From assembly GCA_902802535.1 (NCBI GenBank), contig CADCML010000007.1:26937-90936 (forward strand): a stretch of 64,000 nt of DNA, in the 5' to 3' direction. Below the pieces are notes generated by a model that saw only the letters and a list, made by a program, of their open reading frames with translations, ran no database searches and was not told the DNA's origin. Within the stretch, counting starts at the first letter, position 1. The number at the start of each line of letters is the position of its first letter. The translations under genes and the position numbers were made by a program. Below are positions 6,454 to 56,058 of the stretch, in pieces. The stretch comes from an uncultured Bacteroidia bacterium (GTDB lineage: Bacteria; Bacteroidota; Bacteroidia; Bacteroidales; F082).

Positions 6454-7525
6454 TGATTAGTTGTAAATATTGATTTAAGAAACTTTTTTTCAAAAAGCGT
6501 GCGCTCGACAACGCTTCGCTATGTTTACCCATCTTCCATTTTGTCTGCGCATCCAAATCCATGTATTTGATGATTTTTTCGGCCATATCATCCACATCCT
6601 TGGGATTGAATATGTAGCCGTTTTTCCCATCTTCCATGATGTAAGGAATGTCGCTCACTCGGCTTCCCAAAGCAGGGAGTCCACAACACATGGCCTCGCA
6701 CAACACATTAGGGAAGCCTTCCCAAAGCGAGGGAATTATCATCAGGTTATGCTTGCGATATTCCTCCTCAATGGTGCTCGACTGGTTGCAGAAACTCACG
6801 AAATCCTTAATGCCAAGTTCATCCACCAAAGCATCACAATGCTCAGCGATGTTGCGGCCAAAGAAATCCACATGGAACTTACGCCCCGTTTGTGCCACTT
6901 TGGCAATAGCCCTCAAAAAGTTGGGAATATTCTTGGCTTCGTTGTAACGACCCACAAAAATCGCATTGGTGTTCTCATACTCCCCCACTGTTTTTTCTAT
7001 TGGATAGAACTTCTCCTCATCCACGAAATTGTTGATAGCAATCACCTTGTCTTTCAAAAACGGGAAATGCTCTTTGATGAACTTGGATTCCGTTGTAGAA
7101 TTGGGTACAATCACATCGGCAAAGCGATACAACCGATGCTTCGCTGTTGAGCTTCGGGTAATTTGTCTTGTAATTGTACGTTCTGAAACAATCAGCTTAT
7201 ACTTCTTCCGATGAAGCAGGTGATCCACGCACAACAGTTTGGAAATGCCCTTGTAGTAACTAATAACCACATCGGGGCTATACCCTTTGAGGACTTTACG
7301 CAGCTCAAACAAGCGGGTACTGGTTTTCCGCATTGAAGGTGTATAGGCAAAATCCACATGGTTGTTTGCCAATTCATCTTCCAAAAAGTGGTCGTTTTCA
7401 TAATGGATCCAAAAGACCACCTTCACAAGATAACCAGCCTGATGCAACAATTTGGCCAACTCAGTCATCTGGCGCTGGGCACCACCAGAGCCGAGGGAGT
7501 CTATAATACATAGTATTCGTTTCAT
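6446..7525 (-). CDS. Glycosyltransferase family 4
   Basis: 359 aa. MKRILCIIDSLGSGGAQRQM at the N-terminus and EGFPNVLCEAMCCGLPALGSRVSDIPYIMEDGKNGYIF at the C-terminus. It overlaps its neighbours, so translation is probably coupled. Confidence 0.85.
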   Translation of the reverse strand: MKRILCIIDSLGSGGAQRQMTELAKLLHQAGYLVKVVFWIHYENDHFLEDELANNHVDFAYTPSMRKTSTRLFELRKVLKGYSPDVVISYYKGISKLLCVDHLLHRKKYKLIVSERTITRQITRSSTAKHRLYRFADVIVPNSTTESKFIKEHFPFLKDKVIAINNFVDEEKFYPIEKTVGEYENTNAIFVGRYNEAKNIPNFLRAIAKVAQTGRKFHVDFFGRNIAEHCDALVDELGIKDFVSFCNQSSTIEEEYRKHNLMIIPSLWEGFPNVLCEAMCCGLPALGSRVSDIPYIMEDGKNGYIFNPKDVDDMAEKIIKYMDLDAQTKWKMGKHSEALSSARFLKKSFLNQYLQLIND

Positions 7526-41227: not shown

Positions 41228-41593
41228 TCACGCTTTGGGACTTCCTGCTACAAGTACTCCTAAATCGTATGTTTCTTTAACACTATGTATATACTCATCA
41301 TCCACACCTATGTCTTCTGTCAAGTCTTTCCATTCTGGATTAAAGTCATTTATCAACGCTTCTTTCCAATCCCTATGCCACTTTTTCAATTGCTTTTCTC
41401 TATGAATAGCTATATCAAGTCGTTCGTATATCTCGTAATAAACCAACATCTCCAAGTTATAACGATCAGAGAAACCTGCATTAATGTGTAGCTTATGTTC
41501 CGCTATCCGACGTTGAAGGTCTCTTGTCACCCCCGTATAAAGAGTAGTTCTATTCTTGTTTGTGAGTATGTATACTATTCCTTGGAGAGTCAT
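41228..41593 (-). CDS. GIY-YIG nuclease family protein (small, URI-domain only)
   Basis: 121 aa. GIVYILTNKNRTTLYTGVTRDLQRRIAEHK...YYEIYERLDIAIHREKQLKKW has the GIY..YxG..R..E..N-type layout. Confidence 0.8.
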   Translation of the reverse strand: MTLQGIVYILTNKNRTTLYTGVTRDLQRRIAEHKLHINAGFSDRYNLEMLVYYEIYERLDIAIHREKQLKKWHRDWKEALINDFNPEWKDLTEDIGVDDEYIHSVKETYDLGVLVAGSPKA

Positions 41594-41597
41594 CAGG

Positions 41598-41670
41598 GTA
41601 GTCGTTTCGTGTCAAAGATAGCGGGTCAAGCCCGCTATGAGGGGCTTGGGGCGAATGTGTCGTTTAGGTT
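41598..41670 (+). repeat. ~74-nt direct repeat, copy 2
   Basis: GTAGTCGTTTCGTGTCAAAGATAGCGGGTCAAGCCCGCTATGAGGGGCTTGGG...GTCGTTTAGGTT. It abuts the methyltransferase stop codon. Confidence 0.85.
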
Positions 41671-43420
41671 AGGGTTTTTGATAATCTAAATTGATAATCA
41701 TATCTCTTTCTTCATTATCAAACTGATACATCGAAAAAATCATCTCATCAATTTCTTTTGGGGCATCTTTGTCGCCGAGCAAAGCGCGGTCGACCAACAC
41801 CGTGAGCTGTTCGTCTTGCTCTGGTGTGATTTTCGGGAATGGCAAAGCCATGAGGTTGCCTTTCAAGATTTTCAGGTCGCCGAAACGTTTGACGTAGAGG
41901 AAGTTGAACAACGATGAATTCAAAAACGCCAATACCGTCTTCATGCTCATGCCTTCCACCTCAGGGATGAGGATGTTCGCGCTGTTGAGGAAAAGTCTTT
42001 GCTTGTCATCGTAAGTGAAACAAAGGCGGCTGCTGACGAATTTATACACCAATTTTTCCTTCGCTCGGTAGAACTCGTCTTTGGCACATTGTTGGAAATC
42101 AGCGCGTTGGTATTTGATGTAACGGCTTGCATTCTTCAGGCTGTATTTGCCGATATCCTTGCCCGTGTAAATCTTCTCTAAACCTTGTGCAGCGCGCGTT
42201 TTCAGTTTCTTGGCATTGTTGCCCGTGATGATGCCGAGTGCCCATTGGCTGTGCGACAAATCATCGTTACGCATCCGCTCGGCTTTGGCAAGGATGGCCT
42301 CTTCGCGGTCGCTGCGGATGGGAATGGCACAAAAAGCATCTTCTGTAACGATGAGTTCCTTGTGTGTCACCTCGTTTTTCGCCGTTCTGACGGTGTAAGT
42401 CTGTTTGTCAAACACGGGTTTCCTGCTGACTTTCAAGCTGATGAAATCCGTAAATACGCCCTTGAACCGTTCGTGATACTGTCGGATGCTCTCCATGCGC
42501 GTCTCGTGCGTGACAAAGTGGCGGAAATCGGCGTGAACCTTGATTTTCAAGATGGACGAAGGCAACAGGAAATGTTGTATCCCATTCTTGTTCAACAACT
42601 TGAACGCCTCAGTAAAGAACAAGGCTGCCTTTTCGTGCGACGAGATGATGTCCGACTCGTGTCGTTTGCCGCGTTCCGTGCCCCATGGTGGGTTGGTGAC
42701 GATGTAGTCGAACTTCATGTCACCCAAAGCCAACTCAGCATGGTTCAAAAAATCAAACTGGTAAATCTGTGGATAAACAGATGAATCACTGAATTTTACA
42801 ATCAGATTGGCTTTGGCAATCATCACGGCAAGCGGATCATTGTCGATGCCGTATAATTGCTCCATTTGTGCATGTCTCACCTTCAATAAAAAGATACCGC
42901 TACCGCAACAAGGGTCAAGGAACCGTTCTCCGTTCAAAAGTCTGATATCAGAAAGCATCTCTTCGACTATCACCGGCTTGGTATAATAAAGCCCTTTCAA
43001 AATGCGGCTCCCTTCAGCCGTGATGGATTGATAGATAAAACCAATCCAGTCATCTTGTCGGTTTTTGAGGATTTGGCGGGGTATCTCAATGTCAATCCGC
43101 TGATAATGTGCATATTCCTCAAAGAAACGACGTCGGTTTGTTTCATTCACCTTGTTGTGTTCCAAATAAGAAACGCAAAGACTGAAAATCAGGTCGTTGA
43201 TGGGATAATACAAGGCTTTCAGTTCCTCAACAAATCGAGGCAAGCTGGCCGCCATCACATAGCCTTCGGGAGTGATGATTTTCTGCGAGCGGCTCTTGTT
43301 GGCCCTGCGCGTCAATCGGTCGGCACCCTTGTTTTTCAGCTTGTCCCAGTTACGTTGAGTGGCTTTCGATATGAGAATCTTCGTCTCCGTCATGATACAG
43401 CTTCGCCTCCTAAGTCCCAT
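41669..43420 (-). CDS. N6-adenine DNA methyltransferase, gamma class (Eco57I/TaqI-like), no cognate nuclease seen
   Basis: Motif I is FLDPCCGSGIFLL and motif IV is NPPWG (DYIVTNPPWGTE), followed by a long C-terminal target-recognition-like region. The start could be ATG 43420 or ATG 43393. Confidence 0.8.
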   Translation of the reverse strand: MGLRRRSCIMTETKILISKATQRNWDKLKNKGADRLTRRANKSRSQKIITPEGYVMAASLPRFVEELKALYYPINDLIFSLCVSYLEHNKVNETNRRRFFEEYAHYQRIDIEIPRQILKNRQDDWIGFIYQSITAEGSRILKGLYYTKPVIVEEMLSDIRLLNGERFLDPCCGSGIFLLKVRHAQMEQLYGIDNDPLAVMIAKANLIVKFSDSSVYPQIYQFDFLNHAELALGDMKFDYIVTNPPWGTERGKRHESDIISSHEKAALFFTEAFKLLNKNGIQHFLLPSSILKIKVHADFRHFVTHETRMESIRQYHERFKGVFTDFISLKVSRKPVFDKQTYTVRTAKNEVTHKELIVTEDAFCAIPIRSDREEAILAKAERMRNDDLSHSQWALGIITGNNAKKLKTRAAQGLEKIYTGKDIGKYSLKNASRYIKYQRADFQQCAKDEFYRAKEKLVYKFVSSRLCFTYDDKQRLFLNSANILIPEVEGMSMKTVLAFLNSSLFNFLYVKRFGDLKILKGNLMALPFPKITPEQDEQLTVLVDRALLGDKDAPKEIDEMIFSMYQFDNEERDMIINLDYQKP

Positions 43421-43566
43421 CAAGATTACTTAACGAACTCTATTTCAACCATATATAAAATCGCCTAAATAGGCATATTAAACTTGCAAATATAAGGTTT
43501 TATTGGGATTTGCAACATTTTTATTTAATAAATTAAATTGGAGGTGCATTTCATGCGTTTTTTGAG

Positions 43567-50762: not shown

Positions 50763-50846
50763 GCCGAAGTGGCGGAATCGGTAGACGCGTCGGTCTCAAA
50801 AACCGATGAGGTTACACTCGTGCCGGTTCGATCCCGGCCTTCGGTA
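50763..50846 (+). tRNA. tRNA-Leu (anticodon CAA), type II with long variable arm
   Basis: GCCGAAGTGGCGGAATCGGTAGACGCGTCGGTCTCAAAAACCGATGAGGTTACACTCGTGCCGGTTCGATCCCGGCCTTCGGTA. The acceptor stem is GCCGAAG/CTTCGGT, the anticodon loop is CTCAAAA, and the T-arm is GGTTCGATCC. No CCA is encoded. Confidence 0.9.
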
Positions 50847-50847
50847 C
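50836..50847 (+). repeat. attL core (GGCCTTCGGTAC)
   Basis: It is identical to 55995-56006 and forms the 3' acceptor strand of tRNA-Leu. Confidence 0.75.
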
Positions 50848-50853
50848 TCCAAA

Positions 50854-50892
50854 CCCCTTATAATTGTTTGATTATGAGGGGTTTTTATTTTT
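50854..50892 (+). terminator. Hairpin plus T-run just inside the element, acting as the tRNA-Leu terminator
   Basis: CCCCTTATAAT-tgtttg-ATTATGAGGGG forms an 11-bp stem with one G-U pair, followed by TTTTTATTTTT. Confidence 0.6.
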
Positions 50893-50896
50893 GCAA

Positions 50897-50919
50897 GGTG
50901 TACTAAAAGTGTACTAATT
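50897..50919 (+). repeat. Tandem GTGTACTAA sites, left end (candidate integrase arm-type sites)
   Basis: GGTGTACTAAAAGTGTACTAATT. The same arrangement occurs at 55858-55881. Confidence 0.6.
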
Positions 50920-51208
50920 GAATATTTTGGTACTTTCAGGGGGTGTTTTGCCCATAAAAAACGGTGTAGGATAACGCCCCACACCGTACCAAAAGAAAAT
51001 TAGTTGCTGTTGAAAACAACCGCTGCAAAGATAGGGAAATTTCCCAACCGTTGAGCAAATGGCGGGATTGGGGCTGCTCATCGTTGAGCGGTCAAGGTTG
51101 CTTTTGTCGGGGGTCTGAAAAGTCCAAAAACTCCAACAGCCCGCCTTTGAGGGTGTGGAATGTTGTAGAGTTTTGGCAAACGCTGTCTGCCGGCCCCCGC
51201 CCTGCTCA

Positions 51209-51535
51209 TCAGTCGTCTTTGTCAATCCATCTTTGCACTGCCTTTGTTTCCATTGTGTCCTGCCAATCTGTGAAAAGGGTCTTTGTCACAATATCGGCTT
51301 TGGAATATGCCGCCCCCTCTACCTCATCGGCTCGCTCAACCTTTGGCAACAGATAGGGCAACAGTTTTTCAATGAAAGCCAACCTGTCTTTTGGCTCTAA
51401 TCGCTTCAAGTCCTTTTCTATCTGCTCCCTGTTGCCGTTTATCAGTTCAACAAGCCAATTCCTTATTGTGGTCGTCACTCTGTTGGGCGTTCCCTTTGGT
51501 CGCCCGTTGGGGTTGTTTGTTTTGCCTTTTTCCAT
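51209..51535 (-). CDS. DUF5681-like small protein
   Basis: MEKGKTNNPNGRPKGTPNRV... from ATG 51535. The track start at 51571 is a TTG. The NPNGRPKG motif is typical of DUF5681, by memory. Confidence 0.55.
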   Translation of the reverse strand: MEKGKTNNPNGRPKGTPNRVTTTIRNWLVELINGNREQIEKDLKRLEPKDRLAFIEKLLPYLLPKVERADEVEGAAYSKADIVTKTLFTDWQDTMETKAVQRWIDKDD

Positions 51536-51578
51536 AGTGTGAAATTCTCTGTTTTTCTCTGTTGTTTTCAAAGGGTCA

Positions 51579-51631
51579 ATTTACCAAAGTTTGGTAAAAC
51601 ATTCCACTTATTATAAGGACTTTTCAATTTT
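51579..51631. repeat. 53-nt direct repeat, copy 1, containing the palindrome TTACCAAAGTTTGGTAA
   Basis: It is identical to 52593-52645 except for the central base of the palindrome. It lies upstream of the DUF5681 gene. Confidence 0.85.
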
Positions 51632-51641
51632 CAGCCCTCGT

Positions 51642-52574
51642 TCATCGTGCATATTGGGCAACATCAGATATTGCCTTTTCAAGTTCCAAAATCATGTCGT
51701 TTTTTGCCTCGTTGGGGGCTTGCATGATCCTGTAAAGTTCAGATTTCAGGCGGCTGTAATATTTGGGGTCTGAAAAGGTGTCCTTTGCTTTCAGGTCTGC
51801 CAAAAACTCATCAATACAACTTTGCCCGCCCCGCTGCAAAAGAATTGCAAAAAGGGCGGTTTGTGCCTCTTTTGGGGTCTTAATATTGTCTGTCATTGTG
51901 CTTATAGTGTTGATTTTCTTAATGGTGTCAAACTCGCTTTTCCATTGCTGAATAATGGAGTAGTAAAAGCCGCTATCTGTCAAGGTCGCCCCTGTTATCG
52001 GGTCGGGGGACTTCAACAGCCGCTGCACATTCTTTGCAAGCCTCATTTCATACCTCATCAGATTGCAACCGTTGAGCGTGGGCGGGATAATTGCCCCCTT
52101 TGCGCTCGCTTCTTTGGTTTTGTCATAGAATATCAGTTGCCTGAAATATTGGCTGTAATATAGTGTGTCGGGGTGTGCTTGCAGCCGCTTGAAATGGGGC
52201 TTGTTGCCCAATCCGCTGTAATAGTCTGTTGGCGGTCGCTTGGTCGGGATAACCGTTGAAACATCAAGGCGGGTAACTTTTGCCGTTGCCATATTCAGGC
52301 GGGTTTCATCGCTCATCCTCTCCAAAGCCTCTTTTGCTGTTTGCCGTGTCAGGGTGTAAACATTTGAGGGCAAATAATACTTTGCCAAACTGCCTTTGAG
52401 GGAAATGCCTGTTTGGAAACAACAAACGCTGTAATCCCCCAATTTGCCGCTGCAACTGTACCCCCTTTTGTCGCTCTGCTGCTCCACTACCTCACAAAGA
52501 TAGGGCAACACGGCAAAGGGGTTTCCCTCTACTGTGTCGCCTCTGTCAATCCAAAAATTCACGGTGTCAAACAT
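51642..52574 (-). CDS. Replication initiation protein, phage/plasmid gene II/X (rolling-circle) family
   Basis: MFDTVNFWIDRGD...ISLKGSLAKYYLPSNVYTL...AKEALERMSDETRLNMATAKVTRLDVST...LYYSQYFRQLIFYDKTKE follows the layout I remember for this family. I trimmed the start to ATG 52574 because the longer start is encoded by the repeat. Confidence 0.6.
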   Translation of the reverse strand: MFDTVNFWIDRGDTVEGNPFAVLPYLCEVVEQQSDKRGYSCSGKLGDYSVCCFQTGISLKGSLAKYYLPSNVYTLTRQTAKEALERMSDETRLNMATAKVTRLDVSTVIPTKRPPTDYYSGLGNKPHFKRLQAHPDTLYYSQYFRQLIFYDKTKEASAKGAIIPPTLNGCNLMRYEMRLAKNVQRLLKSPDPITGATLTDSGFYYSIIQQWKSEFDTIKKINTISTMTDNIKTPKEAQTALFAILLQRGGQSCIDEFLADLKAKDTFSDPKYYSRLKSELYRIMQAPNEAKNDMILELEKAISDVAQYAR

Positions 52575-52592
52575 AGCCTTTGGGGTTTCTCT

Positions 52593-52645
52593 ATTTACCA
52601 AAATTTGGTAAAACATTCCACTTATTATAAGGACTTTTCAATTTT
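52593..52645. repeat. 53-nt direct repeat, copy 2, containing the palindrome TTACCAAAATTTGGTAA
   Basis: See copy 1. It lies upstream of the Rep gene. Confidence 0.85.
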
Positions 52646-52650
52646 TGGGG

Positions 52651-53208
52651 TCAATACTGAAAGAATGTCTTTGCCGTTGCCCTCATCGTTTCCAACCCCT
52701 CATTATAAACCCCGTCTGCAAGTGCTTTGGCGTTGCCCAAAATGGTATTGTAGCCATCGGGAATAATAAGCACCTCAACAGCCTGCCAATCGGGGGCAAT
52801 CAGGAAAAGAAAGCCATCGTTTTTGACCTCTAAAAACGGGTTGGGCTTTTTGTCTTTGCTGTAAGTCTTTGCCCTGTTGGGGTTGCCATATCCCACAAAT
52901 CCGCTTCCATCGCTTTGGATCGAGCCATCGAGCAAATAAACACTACTGAAATTCAGGCTGTCTTTGCCCATCAAAAACCTGTCAGCCCGCCTTTGGTCGG
53001 GGCTGTCTATTATCCCCCTCGTTTCATTCAGATAAAGAATGATTTGCCCCTTTTTGTTTTTCAGGCTCTCCAAAGGCTTGTAATATCCCGCCCATCGTGT
53101 AAGGTCAAAGCGCGGGACTTTTGCACCCAATTTGATTTTGTTTCTACTCTTTACCTCATCGGGCAACTGCTCTAATTTGAGGTAGGCACTGAAAATGTTA
53201 GTTTCCAT
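52651..53208 (-). CDS. Hypothetical protein, 185 aa (element cargo)
   Basis: ATG at 53208, overlapping the Xis-like gene by 11 nt. No family recognised. Confidence 0.55.
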   Translation of the reverse strand: METNIFSAYLKLEQLPDEVKSRNKIKLGAKVPRFDLTRWAGYYKPLESLKNKKGQIILYLNETRGIIDSPDQRRADRFLMGKDSLNFSSVYLLDGSIQSDGSGFVGYGNPNRAKTYSKDKKPNPFLEVKNDGFLFLIAPDWQAVEVLIIPDGYNTILGNAKALADGVYNEGLETMRATAKTFFQY

Positions 53209-53494
53209 GTTGCCCCCCTTTCTTCAAGCAATACTGTTGAGCCTTTTGGCTAATTTCAGCCTCTGTTGAAACTCTGTTGCTTTGCAGCCATTGTTCCAAT
53301 TCCACACGGTTGAAATAGCACATTTTCCCCATAGGCTTGTAATGGGGGATTTTCTGCTGCATTGTCAGTTTGTAAAGGTAGGACTTTGAAACGCCCAAAT
53401 ACCTTGCCGCCTCATCGCTTGTAAGCACCTCTTTTGTGCAATTGATAATGTTTGCCGTTATCAGGTCGGCAACCTGTCTTAATTCCTCGCTCAT
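53198..53494 (-). CDS. Excisionase-family helix-turn-helix DNA-binding protein
   Basis: 98 aa. LTSDEAARYLGVSKSYLYKLTMQQKIPHYKPMGKMCYFNRVELEQWL. Confidence 0.75.
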   Translation of the reverse strand: MSEELRQVADLITANIINCTKEVLTSDEAARYLGVSKSYLYKLTMQQKIPHYKPMGKMCYFNRVELEQWLQSNRVSTEAEISQKAQQYCLKKGGQHGN

Positions 53495-53638
53495 CGTTTT
53501 GTTGTTTGCGGGTTGGGGCTGTCAAGGGGTCGGGGGAAACAGCCGCCCCCATCTTTGCCCGTGTGTTGAGCGGTCAAGGCGTTTCCCGTGCCTTGCCCAC
53601 TGTTTCACGGTGCAAAAATCCCTACTATTGGAAAATAA

Positions 53639-53671
53639 GAATTGTGTGTGAATTGTGTATGAATTGTGTGC
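53639..53671 (+). repeat. Three tandem 11-bp repeats (GAATTGTGTGT / GAATTGTGTAT / GAATTGTGTGC)
   Basis: Read directly from the sequence. They are followed by the partially complementary CACACAACACACA and lie in the spacer upstream of the Xis-like gene. Confidence 0.8.
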
Positions 53672-53684
53672 CACACAACACACA

Positions 53685-53712
53685 TAAAAAAAGCACCCTT
53701 GTAAGGTGCTTT
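53685..53712 (-). terminator. Rho-independent terminator after the 276-aa gene
   Basis: The minus strand reads AAAGCACCttacaaGGGTGCTTT followed by a T-run. Confidence 0.65.
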
Positions 53713-53715
53713 CAT

Positions 53716-54546
53716 TCAGTCATTGAAAAGGCTGTCAATTTCTCCCCGCCATTGTTGGGGCTTTTTCACATTGAATGTTGCTGTATATGCACTATCAAGC
53801 CGCTTTTCATCAAACAGTTTTTCCAAAGCCTTGTAATGTATCATTTTTGAGTCTCTAACATCGGGGCTATATACTTTCATTATGAAATAACACAAAGCCG
53901 CCTTTGCCCCTTTTCTCCCTCCAAAAGTCCATTTGTAGCCGTTCCCCGTCTGTTCCATAAATCCCGCCTGTATAGCCTTTGCAAAGTATTTCTTTGCCCC
54001 GTCTGTCATTATATCGGGTTGAGCGGGGCGGCTCTGCTCATCAATGAGCGGTTGAGCGGGGGCGGGCTGCTCCCGTTTCTTGTCAGCCCATGCCTCTACT
54101 GCTTTGATTATTTCCTCAAATGATGATGTTTTTTCAAAATGTGTTCCTGTTGAATAGTCATGCCTTGTTCTCTCAACGACAAAATCTGCATATTGCCCCC
54201 GTGTTTGGCGTGTGTCGCTGTTTATGCCTTGTAACCAATCATTGGAGCGGGATATTATCAACGCTTCATCAGCGGTGTTTTTTGGCTTGTTTTTTGGCTC
54301 TCCAAAATAATGTTTTATTTCTTCAACAATAACTTTGGCAAGCTGCTTTTCATTGGTTGTATTTATCAGGATAACACCCCCCAATGTGGGAAAAACCTTT
54401 GCTTTGCTGTCTTTCAGTAAAACATTTAATTGTTCCTCTGTCTTTTTATAGTTTGCCGCCATTTTCTTGCAACACAATTCTATTGATAAGCTGCTTATTT
54501 TGGTTTGCTCATCAATACATTTTCTCGGCTCATCGTGTGTTTTCAT
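53716..54546 (-). CDS. Hypothetical protein, 276 aa (element cargo)
   Basis: ATG at 54546, 12 nt after the integrase stop. No family recognised. It has a proline/glutamine-rich linker QPAPAQPLIDEQSRPAQPD. Confidence 0.55.
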   Translation of the reverse strand: MKTHDEPRKCIDEQTKISSLSIELCCKKMAANYKKTEEQLNVLLKDSKAKVFPTLGGVILINTTNEKQLAKVIVEEIKHYFGEPKNKPKNTADEALIISRSNDWLQGINSDTRQTRGQYADFVVERTRHDYSTGTHFEKTSSFEEIIKAVEAWADKKREQPAPAQPLIDEQSRPAQPDIMTDGAKKYFAKAIQAGFMEQTGNGYKWTFGGRKGAKAALCYFIMKVYSPDVRDSKMIHYKALEKLFDEKRLDSAYTATFNVKKPQQWRGEIDSLFND

Positions 54547-54557
54547 ACTTCAAACAA

Positions 54558-55802
54558 TCAAAATTCTGCAATTTCCAAAGTCGGCAAACTGTTGATAGCT
54601 TTCTGCTTCAACTCATCAACAGCGCGGGTGTATTTCTCTGTGTGCTTCAATCCTGAATGTCCCAACAGGCTTGCAACCGTCTTAATGTTTGCTCCATTAT
54701 TCAGGATATTCACGGCAAAAGAATGCCTTGCACAATGCCATGTAATATGCTTTTCAATTCCCGCCCGTTTTACCCATCTTTTCACGGCTTTACTACACAT
54801 TTCATAACTCGGCAATTGAAATATAAGGCTGTCTTTGCCCTGCTCATCGGTTGGCTCTCCAATCAGCCTCAACAATCCATCGTTGAGCGGGATAACAACC
54901 CCGCTATTGGCTGAATGTCCCTTTGTCTTATTCTGCTCAAACTTCAAAAGGCGGTTTGAATAGTCCACATTGGCAAAGGTCAAGTCCTTAACATCGCAAA
55001 ACCTCAACCCACAATAAAGGCTCAAAATGAAAGCCCGCCTAATATTGGGGTTTTCCCCCGTGTAGTGTGTGCCTATCAAAGCCTTTTCCTCATCAAGTGA
55101 AAGCACATCTTTTCTCAAAATTTGGTCGTCTGTTTTGATAGAAACCCCGTTGCAAGGGTTTTTTGTCATATAGTCATGGTCTATTGCATACTTTACAACT
55201 TTCTTGAAGCGTTGGAAAACGCCCTTTGCACCCTCGCCCCTGCTTCTACTTTGCAAGTATTCTGTAAAGGCAATCATCATATCTTTGTCCATCTGTTCAG
55301 GCTTAATGCCTTTTGCAAAACGGGTGTATTCGGGTGTGTCTTTCAGAAAGTCATTGAAACGCCTGAAAGCCATTTGCAGCATTCTAACATCTTTCTTTGT
55401 GTAGGTGTCAATGTAGGACTGAAAGAATTGCAAAAAGTCAATTTGGCGGTCTTTCTTCAACCTGAAACCCTCTTTCTTTTCCAACAATTCCTGCTCTTTC
55501 TCAAAGCGTATTTTCTTTGCCAATTGCAAGGTTTCTTTGTTTTGGTTTCTGTCAAAGGGGGTCTTTGGGTTGGAAATCAAAAACAGGTTCAGGCTTTCTT
55601 TGCTTCTAATATGCTTTACCCTGTATTTGGGCGTTCCCGCCATCTTTCCGCTTTGATACAAAACAGGCTCGCCCATCTCATCCAAAACAGGCTCGCTTTG
55701 TCTGCCTAAATAGTACTCCAAATAAAGGCTAATTCTGCCATCTGCCAACTCCCGCTGCTCCAAACGCGGGTTGTCTTTGGTTTTGTTTTCAACTTTTGCC
55801 AT
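54558..55802 (-). CDS. Tyrosine-type site-specific integrase (Bacteroidales type)
   Basis: MAKVENKTKDNPRLEQRELADGRISLYLEYY from ATG 55802. The C-terminal catalytic region is HCARHSFAVNIL...LLGHSGLKHTEKY (R..HxxR..H..Y). Confidence 0.85.
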   Translation of the reverse strand: MAKVENKTKDNPRLEQRELADGRISLYLEYYLGRQSEPVLDEMGEPVLYQSGKMAGTPKYRVKHIRSKESLNLFLISNPKTPFDRNQNKETLQLAKKIRFEKEQELLEKKEGFRLKKDRQIDFLQFFQSYIDTYTKKDVRMLQMAFRRFNDFLKDTPEYTRFAKGIKPEQMDKDMMIAFTEYLQSRSRGEGAKGVFQRFKKVVKYAIDHDYMTKNPCNGVSIKTDDQILRKDVLSLDEEKALIGTHYTGENPNIRRAFILSLYCGLRFCDVKDLTFANVDYSNRLLKFEQNKTKGHSANSGVVIPLNDGLLRLIGEPTDEQGKDSLIFQLPSYEMCSKAVKRWVKRAGIEKHITWHCARHSFAVNILNNGANIKTVASLLGHSGLKHTEKYTRAVDELKQKAINSLPTLEIAEF

Positions 55803-55857
55803 GATACAACTAATTTTCTTTCTTTTGGTGTCACAAAAGTACACTTTTTTTTCATAA

Positions 55858-55881
55858 GGTGTACTAAAAGGTGTACTAATT
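55858..55881 (+). repeat. Tandem GTGTACTAA sites, right end, flanked by inverted AAAAGTACACTTTTTT copies
   Basis: GGTGTACTAAAAGGTGTACTAATT. GTACAC copies in the opposite orientation lie at about 55839 and 55892. Confidence 0.6.
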
Positions 55882-55994
55882 TTCAAAAAAAAGTACACTT
55901 TTTTGAAAACAAGGGAAAACAACAAAAAAGAAAAGCACTCAAAATCAATGCTTTTCTGTTCCTTTGGTTTCTTATTTTTTCACGGTTTTGTCTT

Positions 55995-56006
55995 GGCCTT
56001 CGGTAC
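55995..56006 (+). repeat. attR core (GGCCTTCGGTAC)
   Basis: It is identical to 50836-50847. The 14 nt to its left still resemble the tRNA T-arm (6 of 14 matches). Confidence 0.75.
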
Positions 56007-56014
56007 AACGAAAA

Positions 56015-56037
56015 ACAGCCCCGAGTTTCGAGGCTGT
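56015..56037. terminator. Bidirectional hairpin terminator (glmS, and the pre-insertion tRNA-Leu)
   Basis: ACAGCCccgagtttcgaGGCTGT is flanked by an A-run on the left and a T-run on the right. Confidence 0.6.
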
Positions 56038-56058
56038 TTTTCTTTTGGTTTTCTTGAT

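What the first reader, a model, noticed from the sequence alone, without database searches (positions are those of the whole stretch)
50836..56006. Compact (~5.2 kb) integrative element in tRNA-Leu carrying a rolling-circle Rep but no mobilisation or virion genes
The element is bounded by the 12-bp direct repeat GGCCTTCGGTAC (50836-50847 and 55995-56006). The left copy completes the tRNA-Leu(CAA) acceptor stem. The sequence left of the right copy still resembles the T-arm, as expected if attP mimics the tRNA.

All genes are on the minus strand: tyrosine integrase, a 276-aa unknown, an Xis-like HTH, a 185-aa unknown, a gene II/X-family RCR replication protein, and a DUF5681-like protein. I saw no relaxase/Mob, no coupling protein, and no capsid, Zot or terminase large subunit.

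Bacteroides NBU-type elements are known to target the 3' end of a tRNA-Leu gene, but they are larger and carry mob genes. An Int-Xis-Rep element this small would need a helper. It could be a phage-satellite-like or hitch-hiking integrative replicon, and in that case DUF5681 might act as a packaging or redirecting factor. That last point is speculative.
Basis: partly seen in the sequence, partly recalled or inferred. Interest (0 to 1): 0.65.

Follow-up and report, generated by a model that had tools for sequence, protein, structure and literature searches.

The report
Tiny tRNA-Leu integrative rolling-circle element
A 5.16-kb mobile element sits in a tRNA-Leu gene of an uncultured rumen Bacteroidales bacterium. 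It carries only an integrase, an excisionase-like protein, a filamentous-phage-type replication protein flanked by two copies of its likely origin, and a small-terminase-like protein, and it belongs to a large, apparently undescribed family that most likely spreads by hijacking helper phages.

Summary
tRNA-Leu(CAA) ends at 50847, and GGCCTTCGGTAC occurs only at 50836-47 and 55995-56006. Five metagenome contigs from related strains carry the exact predicted empty junction.

The gene calls also hold: a tyrosine integrase with an arm-binding domain, an HTH_17/excisionase, and a Phage_CRI (gene II) Rep. The Rep model matches Rep_trans initiators (RepDE, RepSTK1). No relaxase, coupling protein, Zot or capsid gene was detected.

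New findings:
1. The module Int, variable protein, HTH, p185, Rep and usually p120 recurs in 29 genome loci and 80 metagenome loci. Almost all are Bacteroidales. Delimited relatives span about 5-7.4 kb and use different integrases and att sites.
2. Rep is bracketed by two direct 56-nt repeats. Their order and spacing resemble the M13 (+) origin core. The pair is conserved and evolves in concert across the family.
3. p120 (DUF5681-like) is homologous to phage proteins encoded just upstream of TerL. One relative carries a true Terminase_2 TerS in that slot.

Best reading: a minimal, helper-dependent satellite-like replicon that replicates by rolling circle. Integration is shown. Replication is strongly inferred. 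Phage-mediated transfer is inferred only. No circular, concatemeric or virion-borne form could be tested.

The parts
50763..50847 (+). tRNA-Leu(CAA), the integration target. Its last 12 nt are the attL core.
   Evidence: ARAGORN; Rfam RF00005, 57.8 bits.
50836..50847 (.). attL core repeat GGCCTTCGGTAC.
   Evidence: Only two copies in the window, 0.08 expected. Empty sites hold a single copy.
50848..56006 (-). The inserted element: 5,159 bp counting one core copy. All genes are on the minus strand.
   Evidence: Presence/absence polymorphism against L005, L008, L011, L012 and L013. Lower G+C than the flanks.
50851..50884 (+). Terminator-like hairpin supplied by the element directly after the tRNA. 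It replaces the host hairpin, which is now at 56007-56045.
   Evidence: Consensus scan: 15-pair stem plus a T run. Function is inferred.
50895..50916 (-). Left-arm repeats GTGTACTAA x2, candidate integrase arm-type sites.
   Evidence: 6 of the window's 14 GTACAC hexamers lie in the two element ends. D16 repeat. Int has an Arm-DNA-bind_5 domain. Relatives show analogous end repeats.
50961..50987 (-). Terminator-like hairpin downstream of p120.
   Evidence: Consensus scan.
51209..51535 (-). p120, 108 aa from the conserved ATG (the ORF extends to a TTG at 51571). A DUF5681-like protein with a GRPKGxPNK motif, related to proteins in the small-terminase position of phages.
   Evidence: DUF5681 at 18.9 bits, below the 27.5 cut-off. 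9 of 12 family members hit DUF5681, best E 4.7e-7. hhalign probability 97% to phage proteins overlapping TerL. Downstream ORFs gave 31 TerL-domain hits in 42 distinct IMG/VR loci.
51576..51631 (-). Origin-like repeat 2, between Rep and p120. Palindrome at 51580-51598; CTTATAATAAG at 51607-51617.
   Evidence: 56-nt direct repeat, 96% identical to copy 1. 35-nt core found twice, 0 expected. Conserved in relatives.
51642..52574 (-). Rep, 310 aa: a rolling-circle initiator of the gene II / Cri (Phage_CRI) family.
   Evidence: PF05144 at 39.2 bits against a 21.7 cut-off. AF2 model pLDDT 84. Foldseek top hits RepDE 4cwc and RepSTK1 4cij, E 9e-7. The invariant Y164 in FYDK lies opposite M13 gpII Y197 in an alignment that is not itself significant.
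52590..52645 (-). Origin-like repeat 1, ending 16 nt upstream of the Rep ATG. Palindrome at 52594-52612; CTTATAATAAG at 52621-52631. Proposed double-strand origin and nick region.
   Evidence: The layout matches the M13 (+) origin core read. The hairpin has an 8-bp stem and a 3-nt loop, as in M13's second hairpin.
52651..53208 (-). p185, a conserved protein of unknown fold. Its start overlaps the HTH gene by 11 nt, and it almost always lies directly upstream of Rep.
   Evidence: Syntenic in most genome and metagenome loci. 142 homologs, none with a Pfam domain. AF2 pLDDT 90.4. No fold match in PDB or BFVD. No sequence match in PDB.
53198..53494 (-). HTH_17 / excisionase-family DNA-binding protein (Xis- or AlpA-like).
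   Evidence: PF12728 at 57.4 bits; TIGR01764 at 50.2 bits against a 28.8 cut-off.
53639..53669 (-). Three ACACAATTC repeats spaced 11 bp apart, in the 220-bp gap upstream of the HTH-p185-Rep-p120 genes. Candidate operator.
   Evidence: Read directly from the sequence. Function is inferred.
53689..53713 (-). Terminator-like hairpin ending the int-p276 transcription unit.
   Evidence: Consensus scan: 11-pair stem plus a T run.
53716..54546 (-). p276, the occupant of a variable slot. Its N-terminus is variable; its C-terminal ~110 aa (LAYFI...KPKGY..ID type) is shared by the slot proteins of relatives.
   Evidence: No family hit. C-terminal alignment A6. No PDB sequence hit.
54558..55802 (-). Tyrosine integrase, 414 aa, with arm-binding, SAM-like and catalytic domains.
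   Evidence: PF00589 at 78 bits, PF13102 at 58 bits, PF17293 at 30 bits; phrog_1.
55839..55898 (.). Right-arm cluster of four GTACAC sites in both orientations: candidate arm-type sites and the int promoter region.
   Evidence: (I1, D16).
55995..56006 (.). attR core repeat GGCCTTCGGTAC.

Best explanation
This is a minimal, site-specific integrative replicon that depends on a helper, most likely a tailed phage. In other words it is a phage-satellite-like element.

**Shown.** A tyrosine integrase element of 5,159 bp is inserted into the 3' end of tRNA-Leu(CAA). It duplicates a 12-bp core. Related strains lack it.

**Strongly inferred.**
- After excision by Int and the HTH_17 protein, the gene II-type Rep nicks the coding strand at the origin-like repeat just upstream of its own gene.
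- The likely nick region is the TATAATAAG motif, about 10 nt before the TTTACCAAAnTTTGGTAAA palindrome.
- Rep then drives rolling-circle replication.

**Inferred.**
- The small-terminase-like p120, encoded right after the second origin copy, hands the replicated DNA to a helper phage's large terminase and capsids. The element has neither of its own.
- A 5-kb unit would have to be packaged as a multimer, as in PICMI and VEIME satellites.
- After delivery, Int re-inserts the element into tRNA-Leu.

**Open.** The role of the second origin copy is unresolved. The main options are:
- a terminator that stops replication running into the chromosome if Rep fires before excision;
- a Rep-binding operator for p120;
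- a true second origin, which would split the circle into a 1.0-kb rep arc and a 4.1-kb arc.
For: **Integration**
- Searches show the tRNA, the repeat and the empty sites.
- Arm-type repeats lie at both ends, and Int has an arm-binding domain.
- The same element abuts different downstream flanks in runs X2 and X3.
- A related element sits at tRNA-Leu next to prs in a genome with a different neighbouring gene.

**Family**
- The module recurs in 29 genome loci and 80 metagenome loci.
- Integrases diverge to 23-27% identity.
- Other members use tRNA-Leu(TAA), tRNA-Glu, tRNA-Met or non-tRNA sites. The delimited ones span 5.0-7.4 kb.

**Replication**
- Rep scores above the PF05144 cut-off and has a Rep_trans-type fold at E 9e-7.
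- Its invariant FYDK tyrosine lies opposite gpII Y197 in an alignment that is not itself significant.
- The origin-like motif is found only next to Rep, on Rep's coding strand.
- MAFFT places it in register with the M13 (+) origin.
- The two copies within one element are 88% identical on average, against 68% between elements. That indicates concerted evolution.

**Packaging**
- p120 matches the proteins just upstream of TerL in MW202710 and MW202462 with hhalign probability 97.5% and 97.2%.
- At least 370 IMG/VR stretches encode relatives.
- Of 42 distinct downstream ORFs, 21 hit Terminase_6N and 10 hit Terminase_3.
- Locus L026 has a Terminase_2 TerS (66.8 bits) in the p120 slot, directly after the second origin copy.

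**Other**
- No structural, TerL, relaxase or coupling-protein genes were found.
- Metatranscriptome contigs cover Rep and p185.
- PICMI and VEIME satellites show that 5-6-kb integrative elements can travel as concatemers in full-size capsids (PMC10803314, PMC9618062).
Against: - No excised circle, concatemer or virion-borne copy was seen. Only assembled Logan contigs were available.
- None of about 110 related contigs is circular or tandem.
- Element depth equals flank depth in run X1.
- No helper was identified.
- The closest viral p120 relatives (40-65% identity) are followed by arrays of small ORFs, not by TerL. In Bacteroides phage BF1-TP2 the homolog lies by the lysogeny module. So p120 could be a DNA-binding regulator instead.
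- The window's own p120 is below the DUF5681 cut-off.
- p120 shows no profile similarity to the Terminase_2 TerS of L026.
- Only one of about 110 relatives has a classical TerS.
- A gene II-type Rep terminates at each origin passage. Concatemer formation is therefore not the default, and two origins would work against it.
- The nick-site hairpin that is strong in M13 is only a 4-bp stem here. The fold z-scores are not significant.
- The exact origin pattern has no hit in IMG/VR.
Confidence: 0.45

Rival explanations
1. It is an integrative mobilizable element. Rep acts as a non-canonical relaxase, the repeat serves as oriT, and a co-resident Bacteroidales conjugative element supplies the coupling protein and mating pore.
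For: Streptococcal IMEs commonly encode putative relaxases related to rolling-circle initiators, including 21 elements of the PHA00330 (gene II-like) type. Some of these are in tRNA-Leu, and some lack a coupling protein (PMC5704250). The element has Int, Xis and a nicking enzyme with a cognate site, which is all an IME needs. NBU1 also uses the 3' end of tRNA-Leu.
Against: All characterised Bacteroidetes IMEs use MobP or MobV relaxases with VirD4-type helpers. In Firmicutes, relaxases of the initiator type go with TcpA-type coupling proteins; whether these occur in Bacteroidales was not examined here. No accessory Mob protein was found. This reading does not explain the terminase-related gene or the TerS in L026. 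The streptococcal cases are themselves predictions, not demonstrations.
Confidence: 0.2
2. It is a satellite of a filamentous (inovirus-like) phage, analogous to TLC-phi or RS1 of Vibrio cholerae. Rep makes single-stranded circles from the origin, and a helper inovirus coats and extrudes them.
For: The Rep family (Phage_CRI) is the family of Ff gene II. TLC, a ~5-kb integrative satellite of a filamentous phage that has no morphogenesis genes, is recalled from the literature to encode a Cri replicase of this family (papers listed, not read). The origin layout resembles Ff. Two direct Ff origins are known to release the intervening segment as a single-stranded circle (PMC11962056).
Against: No inovirus-like helper (Zot/pI ATPase, coat proteins) was seen in the window or in any related locus. 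No Rep relative was found in 50,697 phage records, and only 2 in IMG/VR. The element uses its own tyrosine integrase rather than Xer. The terminase-related p120 has no role in filamentous assembly. No packaging-signal hairpin was identified.
Confidence: 0.1
3. It is an integrative rolling-circle plasmid with no dedicated transfer route. It persists by integration and replicates after excision only to avoid loss. It spreads occasionally by generalised transduction, vesicles or transformation, and it may benefit the host through cargo.
For: No transfer gene is proven. Depth is one copy per genome. Relatives carry small cargo: Fic/DOC, lipoproteins and WYL_2.
Against: The family is very widespread, with swapped integrases and att sites. 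That implies efficient horizontal movement. The window's element carries no obvious cargo. The conserved p120/TerS slot would be unexplained.
Confidence: 0.15
4. It is an autonomous minimal temperate single-stranded-DNA virus. The conserved beta-rich p185 would be a novel capsid protein next to Rep, giving a Rep plus Cap architecture.
For: p185 is confidently predicted with eight beta-strands and C-terminal helices. It is almost always adjacent to Rep.
Against: There is no fold similarity to any capsid in PDB or BFVD: best TM below 0.35 and E above 0.04. There are no PHROG hits. No lysis or entry genes were found. The family is nearly absent from viral collections.
Confidence: 0.03

Closest known systems
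PICMI (phage-inducible chromosomal minimalist islands, Vibrionaceae) and marine VEIMEs
   Same: A very small integrative element (PICMI115 is 6,110 bp) with an integrase, an AlpA/HTH excision regulator and its own replication gene. It has no capsid or remodelling genes. Transfer is as concatemers in full-size helper capsids, consistent with rolling-circle-like replication (PMC10803314, PMC9618062).
   Different: PICMI replicates with a primase and has no terS. It integrates next to fis and is found in Vibrio. The element here has a gene II-type HUH-less Rep with Ff-like origins and a terminase-related gene, uses tRNA genes, and is found in Bacteroidales. Its helper dependence and packaging are not shown.
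TLC-phi / RS1 satellites of Vibrio filamentous phages
   Same: A ~5-kb integrated element that lacks virion genes. TLC is recalled from the literature to encode a Cri replicase of the Phage_CRI family (papers listed, not read here).
   Different: TLC uses host XerCD at dif, not its own integrase. Its helper is a filamentous phage. It has no terminase-like gene and no origin pair around rep.
Streptococcal IMEs with PHA00330-type putative relaxases (for example IME_SpnA45_tRNAleu)
   Same: An integrase plus a gene II-related nicking protein in a compact element. Some are in tRNA-Leu (PMC5704250, PMC5357655).
   Different: They are in Firmicutes, usually with a TcpA coupling protein. Their function is predicted, not shown. 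No p185, p120 or origin pair is described for them.
NBU1/NBU2 and Tn4555-type Bacteroides mobilizable elements
   Same: The host order is the same. They carry a tyrosine integrase and target the 3' end of a tRNA (NBU1 uses tRNA-Leu). That they also carry HTH_17-type excision proteins is recalled, not checked here.
   Different: They are 10-12 kb and carry a MobP relaxase and oriT. They have no rolling-circle Rep. The element here has no Mob gene.
Ff (M13/f1) gene II protein and (+) origin; engineered two-origin cassettes
   Same: The Rep family is the same. The origin core has the same order: nick motif, GTGGA, 6 nt, then a CCAAA palindrome. Two direct origins flanking a segment is exactly the design used to release short single-stranded circles (PMC11962056).
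   Different: Sequence identity is low and nhmmer does not link them. The nick-site hairpin is weak here. In Ff a single origin lies about 225 nt upstream of gene II. A natural origin pair bracketing rep is not a feature of Ff.
PICI / cf-PICI satellites
   Same: They have integrase and regulator modules, their own replicon, and a small terminase that redirects helper packaging.
   Different: They are 10-15 kb with a primase/helicase replicon and capsid-remodelling or capsid genes, and are found in Proteobacteria and Firmicutes.

Membership tests
tRNA-targeting tyrosine-integrase integrative elements | A tyrosine recombinase gene at one end. | tested here: met
   PF00589 at 78.2 bits, plus SAM-like and arm-binding domains.
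tRNA-targeting tyrosine-integrase integrative elements | A direct repeat of the tRNA 3' end at both borders, and empty sites in relatives. | tested here: met
tRNA-targeting tyrosine-integrase integrative elements | An excised circular form (attP). | not testable with these tools
   Only assembled contigs were available. No circular contig was found.
Phage_CRI / gene II rolling-circle initiators | A profile match above the curated threshold. | tested here: met
   PF05144 at 39.2 bits against 21.7, E 8e-10. All listed homologs carry PF05144.
Phage_CRI / gene II rolling-circle initiators | A Rep_trans-type (TBP-like) catalytic fold. | tested here: met
   Foldseek hits 4cwc and 4cij, E 9e-7, probability 1.0, followed by TBP folds.
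Phage_CRI / gene II rolling-circle initiators | A conserved catalytic tyrosine equivalent to gpII Tyr197. | tested here: inconclusive
   Y164 (FYDK) is invariant in 20 sequences and pairs with Y197 in hhalign. That alignment alone is not significant, with probability 0.2. The identity of Tyr197 as the catalytic residue is from memory (Asano et al. 1999).
Phage_CRI / gene II rolling-circle initiators | A cognate origin with a nick site and an adjacent inverted-repeat binding site. | tested here: inconclusive
   A conserved motif lies next to Rep, in register with the M13 origin. Nicking was not tested.
Phage satellites (PICI, PICMI, VEIME kind) | Integrated, with its own excision and replication genes and no capsid, tail or TerL genes. 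| tested here: met
Phage satellites (PICI, PICMI, VEIME kind) | A packaging-redirection gene such as terS. | tested here: inconclusive
   p120 is homologous to proteins in the TerS position. L026 has Terminase_2. The closest relatives are not next to TerL.
Phage satellites (PICI, PICMI, VEIME kind) | Induction by a helper phage and encapsidation in helper particles. | not testable with these tools
   No raw reads or virome runs could be examined. No helper was identified.
Inoviridae prophage | A pI/Zot morphogenesis ATPase and small coat proteins. | tested here: not met
   No such hit among the six proteins. There is no unassigned coding space.
Bacteroides NBU/Tn4555-type IMEs | A MobP or MobV relaxase with oriT. 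| tested here: not met
   No relaxase family hit. The feature list is from PMC5704250.
DUF5681 (PF18932) | A score above the gathering threshold of 27.5 bits. | tested here: not met
   The window's p120 scores 18.9 bits. 9 of 12 orthologs match at E<=0.01, best 4.7e-7. About half of the database homologs are pre-annotated PF18932. It is a related member at the family's edge.

The most novel reading that the evidence does not exclude
The family is a previously unrecognised class of rolling-circle phage satellites of Bacteroidales in which rep is deliberately bracketed by two functional Ff-type origins. Rep would start at the upstream copy and terminate at the downstream one. That would release a self-amplifying ~1.0-kb rep-only single-stranded minicircle, even from the integrated state. 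The remaining 4.1-kb arc would replicate in trans. This would be a natural counterpart of the engineered two-origin cassette and, in effect, a bipartite bacterial replicon.
Probability: 0.15. Interest if true: 0.8.

Novelty: new variant of a known kind. Interest (0 to 1): 0.62.

Why it matters
- Bacteroidales dominate gut and rumen communities, yet no phage satellite family has been described for them. I found no paper linking Bacteroidales, Phage_CRI and integrases, or describing Bacteroidales satellites.
- This element belongs to a family with about 1,700 Rep clusters at 50% identity. Related elements recur in rumen, termite-gut and digester metagenomes.
- If it is a satellite, its 5.16 kb undercuts the smallest characterised one, PICMI115 at 6.11 kb. 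It would show that Int, Xis, an RCR module and a TerS-like protein are enough.
- It also gives DUF5681 a testable role as a small terminase.
- It presents a conserved natural origin-rep-origin arrangement whose logic is unknown.
- The 56-nt origin plus the 310-aa Rep could become a compact replication module for genetic tools in Bacteroidales.

Tried and rejected
**Searches that gave nothing**
- Circular or tandem contigs: none among the full-length small contigs checked or the 80 metagenome loci.
- Read-level junctions: every run is held only as Logan contigs, so neither attP nor the 1,014-nt circle could be tested.
- A contig in run X27 joins 51578 to 52593, a rep-less form. Its depth is 2.8 and the 56-nt repeat exceeds the assembler's word length, so I treat it as weak.
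- p185: no Pfam, NCBIfam, PHROG or PADLOC hit. No PDB or BFVD fold match despite pLDDT 90. No PDB sequence hit.
- p276 and its shared C-terminal domain: no hit anywhere.
- Rep against 50,697 phage records: no match. Against plasmids: one distant match, which turned out to be a similar integrated element in Parabacteroides distasonis.
- Profile search of Rep against PDB sequences: nothing.
- The exact origin pattern in IMG/VR: 0 hits.
- p120 against the Terminase_2 TerS of L026: unrelated.

**Readings considered and dropped**
- The palindrome as a Bacteroides promoter (-33 TTTG / -7 TAnnTTTG). The only good -7 match overlaps the Rep start codon, and the p120 copy has none.
- The repeats as a TerS pac site. 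The motif tracks Rep, not p120, and persists in loci that lack p120 or carry a different TerS.
- An inovirus prophage, because Zot and coat genes are absent.

Full report
**1.
- A single tRNA-Leu(CAA) lies at 50763-50847 on the + strand.
- The 12-mer GGCCTTCGGTAC occurs only at 50836-50847 and 55995-56006. Shuffles expect 0.08 copies.
- I looked up the exact prs protein next to the tRNA and obtained ten contigs from rumen and gut metagenomes.
- In L005, L008, L011, L012 and L013 the tRNA is followed directly by AACGAAAAACAGCC and then glmS. L006 and L010 differ by one base.
- L001 carries the occupied site with identical genes.
- The insertion is 5,147 bp plus one core copy. Its G+C is lower than that of the flanks.
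- The host is an uncultured rumen 'Bacteroidales bacterium'.

**2. Anatomy.** All genes are on the minus strand.
- Int (54558-55802) has arm-binding, SAM-like and catalytic domains.
- p276 (53716-54546) follows 12 nt later. A terminator-like hairpin lies at 53689-53713.
- A 220-bp gap holds three ACACAATTC repeats spaced 11 bp apart.
- Next come the HTH_17/excisionase-family gene (53198-53494) and p185 (52651-53208), which overlaps it by 11 nt.
- Then come Rep and p120.
- Family alignments move the Rep start to M15 (52574) and the p120 start to 51535.
- GTACAC-containing repeats cluster at both ends. They account for 6 of the window's 14 copies and fit arm-type sites.
- The element brings its own terminator-like hairpin for the tRNA at 50851-50884.
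- No relaxase, coupling protein, Zot, coat, capsid or TerL is detectable in Pfam, NCBIfam, PHROGs or PADLOC.

**3. Rep.**
- Rep scores 39.2 bits on PF05144, against a cut-off of 21.7.
- Its AlphaFold model (pLDDT 84) matches the Rep_trans initiators RepDE and RepSTK1 at E 9e-7, followed by TBP-like folds.
- Invariant motifs include RxDxST, TLYY, FYDKxxE and RYE.
- In an hhalign against M13 gpII these pair with SRIDAT, AYLK (Tyr197) and RFE. The single-sequence comparison is not significant by itself.

**4. A family, not a one-off.**
- Rep has 359 database homologs, all about 310 aa and all carrying PF05144.
- An exhaustive search finds 1,719 clusters at 50% identity with E<=1e-3.
- 29 loci in species-representative genomes are nearly all Bacteroidales. 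One bin is labelled Synergistales. A further 80 metagenome loci were retrieved.
- These loci share the order Int, variable protein, HTH_17, p185, Rep and often p120.
- Integrases fall to 23-27% identity while the HTH-p185-Rep block stays syntenic.
- Candidate borders give sizes of 5.0-7.4 kb in tRNA-Leu(CAA), tRNA-Leu(TAA), tRNA-Glu, tRNA-Met or non-tRNA sites.
- The 'variable slot' proteins share a C-terminal domain of about 110 aa, including the window's p276.
- Extra genes in larger members are small unknowns, Fic/DOC, lipoproteins and WYL_2.
- In runs X2 and X3 the same element abuts different downstream sequence.
- A close relative occupies tRNA-Leu next to prs in a genome with a different neighbouring gene.

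**5. Two origin-like repeats bracket Rep.**
- A 56-nt direct repeat, 96% identical, lies at 52590-52645 and again at 51576-51631. The first copy ends 16 nt before the Rep ATG. The second lies between Rep and p120.
- Its 35-nt core occurs twice in the window, with 0 expected.
- Each copy reads, on the coding strand, CTTATAATAAG-TGGAATGTTT-TTACCAAAnTTTGGTAAA.
- The same arrangement flanks Rep in at least a dozen genome loci and many metagenome loci.
- An nhmmer model of the motif hits nowhere else in the window or the loci.
- Copies within one element are 88% identical on average, against 68% between elements. The variable spacer co-varies within pairs. That indicates concerted evolution.
- The M13 (+) origin core reads CTTTAATAGTGGACTCTTGTTCCAAACTGGAACAA. 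It has the same order and spacing: nick motif, GTGGA, 6 nt, then a CCAAA palindrome. MAFFT places it in register.
- As single strands, both sequences form an 8-bp, 3-nt-loop hairpin at the palindrome. M13's strong nick-site hairpin is only a 4-bp stem here.
- For Ff, pII cuts at GTTCTTT/AATA. Two direct (+) origins cause replication to start at one and end at the other, releasing the segment between them as a circle (PMC11962056).
- By analogy, the repeats are the cognate origins of this Rep. Why two are kept is unresolved. The options are a safety terminator, a Rep operator for p120, or a real split into 1.0-kb and 4.1-kb circles.
- One low-depth contig in run X27 lacks exactly the 1,014 bp between the repeats. 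It may be an assembly effect.

**6. p120 and packaging.**
- The window's p120 is below the DUF5681 cut-off. Even so, 9 of 12 orthologs hit it.
- The family has at least 3,295 members.
- In two uncultured Caudoviricetes genomes the homolog overlaps the start of a Terminase_3 TerL, and a portal gene follows. hhalign gives 97.5% and 97.2% probability.
- IMG/VR holds at least 370 stretches encoding relatives.
- In 53 of 79 fetched loci an ORF of at least 150 aa starts within -80 to +300 nt of the stop.
- Of 42 distinct such ORFs, 21 hit Terminase_6N and 10 hit Terminase_3 at E<=1e-5.
- In relative L026 the slot after the second origin copy holds a Terminase_2 TerS (66.8 bits). It has 195 phage matches, many annotated as small terminase.
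- Caveats apply. The closest viral relatives precede arrays of small ORFs, or sit in other small Int-HTH elements. In Bacteroides phage BF1-TP2 the homolog lies by the lysogeny module. p120 is also unrelated in profile to Terminase_2.

**7. What could not be shown.**
- Runs holding the element are available only as assembled contigs. Excision, circles, concatemers and encapsidation are therefore untested.
- Element depth equals flank depth in run X1.
- Metatranscriptome contigs cover Rep, p185 and part of p276. That is weak evidence of expression.
- p185 has a confident model but no structural or sequence relative. Its role is unknown.

**8. Verdict.**
- The element is a member of a large, apparently undescribed family of minimal integrative rolling-circle replicons in Bacteroidales.
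- The best-supported lifestyle is satellite-like hitch-hiking on tailed phages, at about 0.45. The rivals are:
  - conjugative mobilisation with Rep as relaxase, about 0.2;
  - an integrative plasmid with no dedicated transfer route, about 0.15;
  - a filamentous-phage satellite, about 0.1;
  - an autonomous virus, about 0.03.
- It resembles PICMI and VEIME satellites in minimalism, and TLC-phi and Ff in its replication module.
- It differs from all of them in combining a gene II-type Rep, an origin pair around rep, a DUF5681 terminase-like gene and a tRNA-targeting integrase.

Noticed in passing
L005:12300-17100 (also L007 and L009); the window equivalent lies between 48297 and 48371: Some strains carry an extra ~5-kb block between pth and rlmL: four unknown genes of 146, 107, 258 and 273 aa plus a 464-aa ATPase_2/AAA_16 protein. 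The window and L006 lack it. This is a second strain-variable island near the tRNA.
   Followed up: no
window 51093-51205: The non-coding stretch between attL and p120 varies among otherwise near-identical copies. Contigs in runs X2, X3 and X4 skip 75 bp (51131-51205) and carry 9 other bases there. In X3 a contig holds about 660 bp of other sequence in place of 51093-51205.
   Followed up: partly
L015 (NZ_OY725790.1, Parabacteroides distasonis, 52-61 kb): A record typed as a 278-kb 'plasmid' holds a distant relative. It has an integrase, a 400-aa protein, an HTH and a Rep-like protein (25% identity), then eight small ORFs, with no p185. tRNA genes lie nearby.
   Followed up: partly
L028:443-1372 (minus strand) and 6508-7464: One termite-gut Dysgonamonadaceae contig carries two diverged Rep genes about 5 kb apart on opposite strands, together with 48-49-nt repeats. 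This suggests adjacent or nested elements.
   Followed up: no
L016:9372-9557, L034:9306-9515, L053:8296-8502, L055:8293-8496, L196:5254-5439: In many relatives and viral contigs, p120 is followed by an overlapping ORF of 61-72 aa. The window's p120 is longer and lacks this partner. The pair may form a two-part unit.
   Followed up: no
L024:4506-6057, L026:5329-6102, L025:62-823, L055:8986-10730: Several relatives carry Fic/DOC genes, and one context has an AbiC-like gene. Cargo therefore looks like toxin or defence functions.
   Followed up: partly
L023 (BNVH01000087.1): A contig binned as 'Synergistales bacterium' carries a typical family member (Rep 54% identical). This is either mis-binning or spread outside Bacteroidota.
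   Followed up: no
L139:1507-5285 (IMG/VR 55-kb contig): The closest viral-collection relative of p120 (65% identity) sits in another small module of Int, HTH and four small genes, with no Rep or p185. p120 may therefore mark a wider superfamily of elements with swapped replication modules.
   Followed up: partly
window 41228-43423: ORFs of 584 aa and 121 aa match in size and position the genes annotated N6_Mtase/Eco57I/TaqI_C and GIY-YIG in L006. This looks like a type IIG-like restriction-modification gene beside a GIY-YIG nuclease.
   Followed up: no
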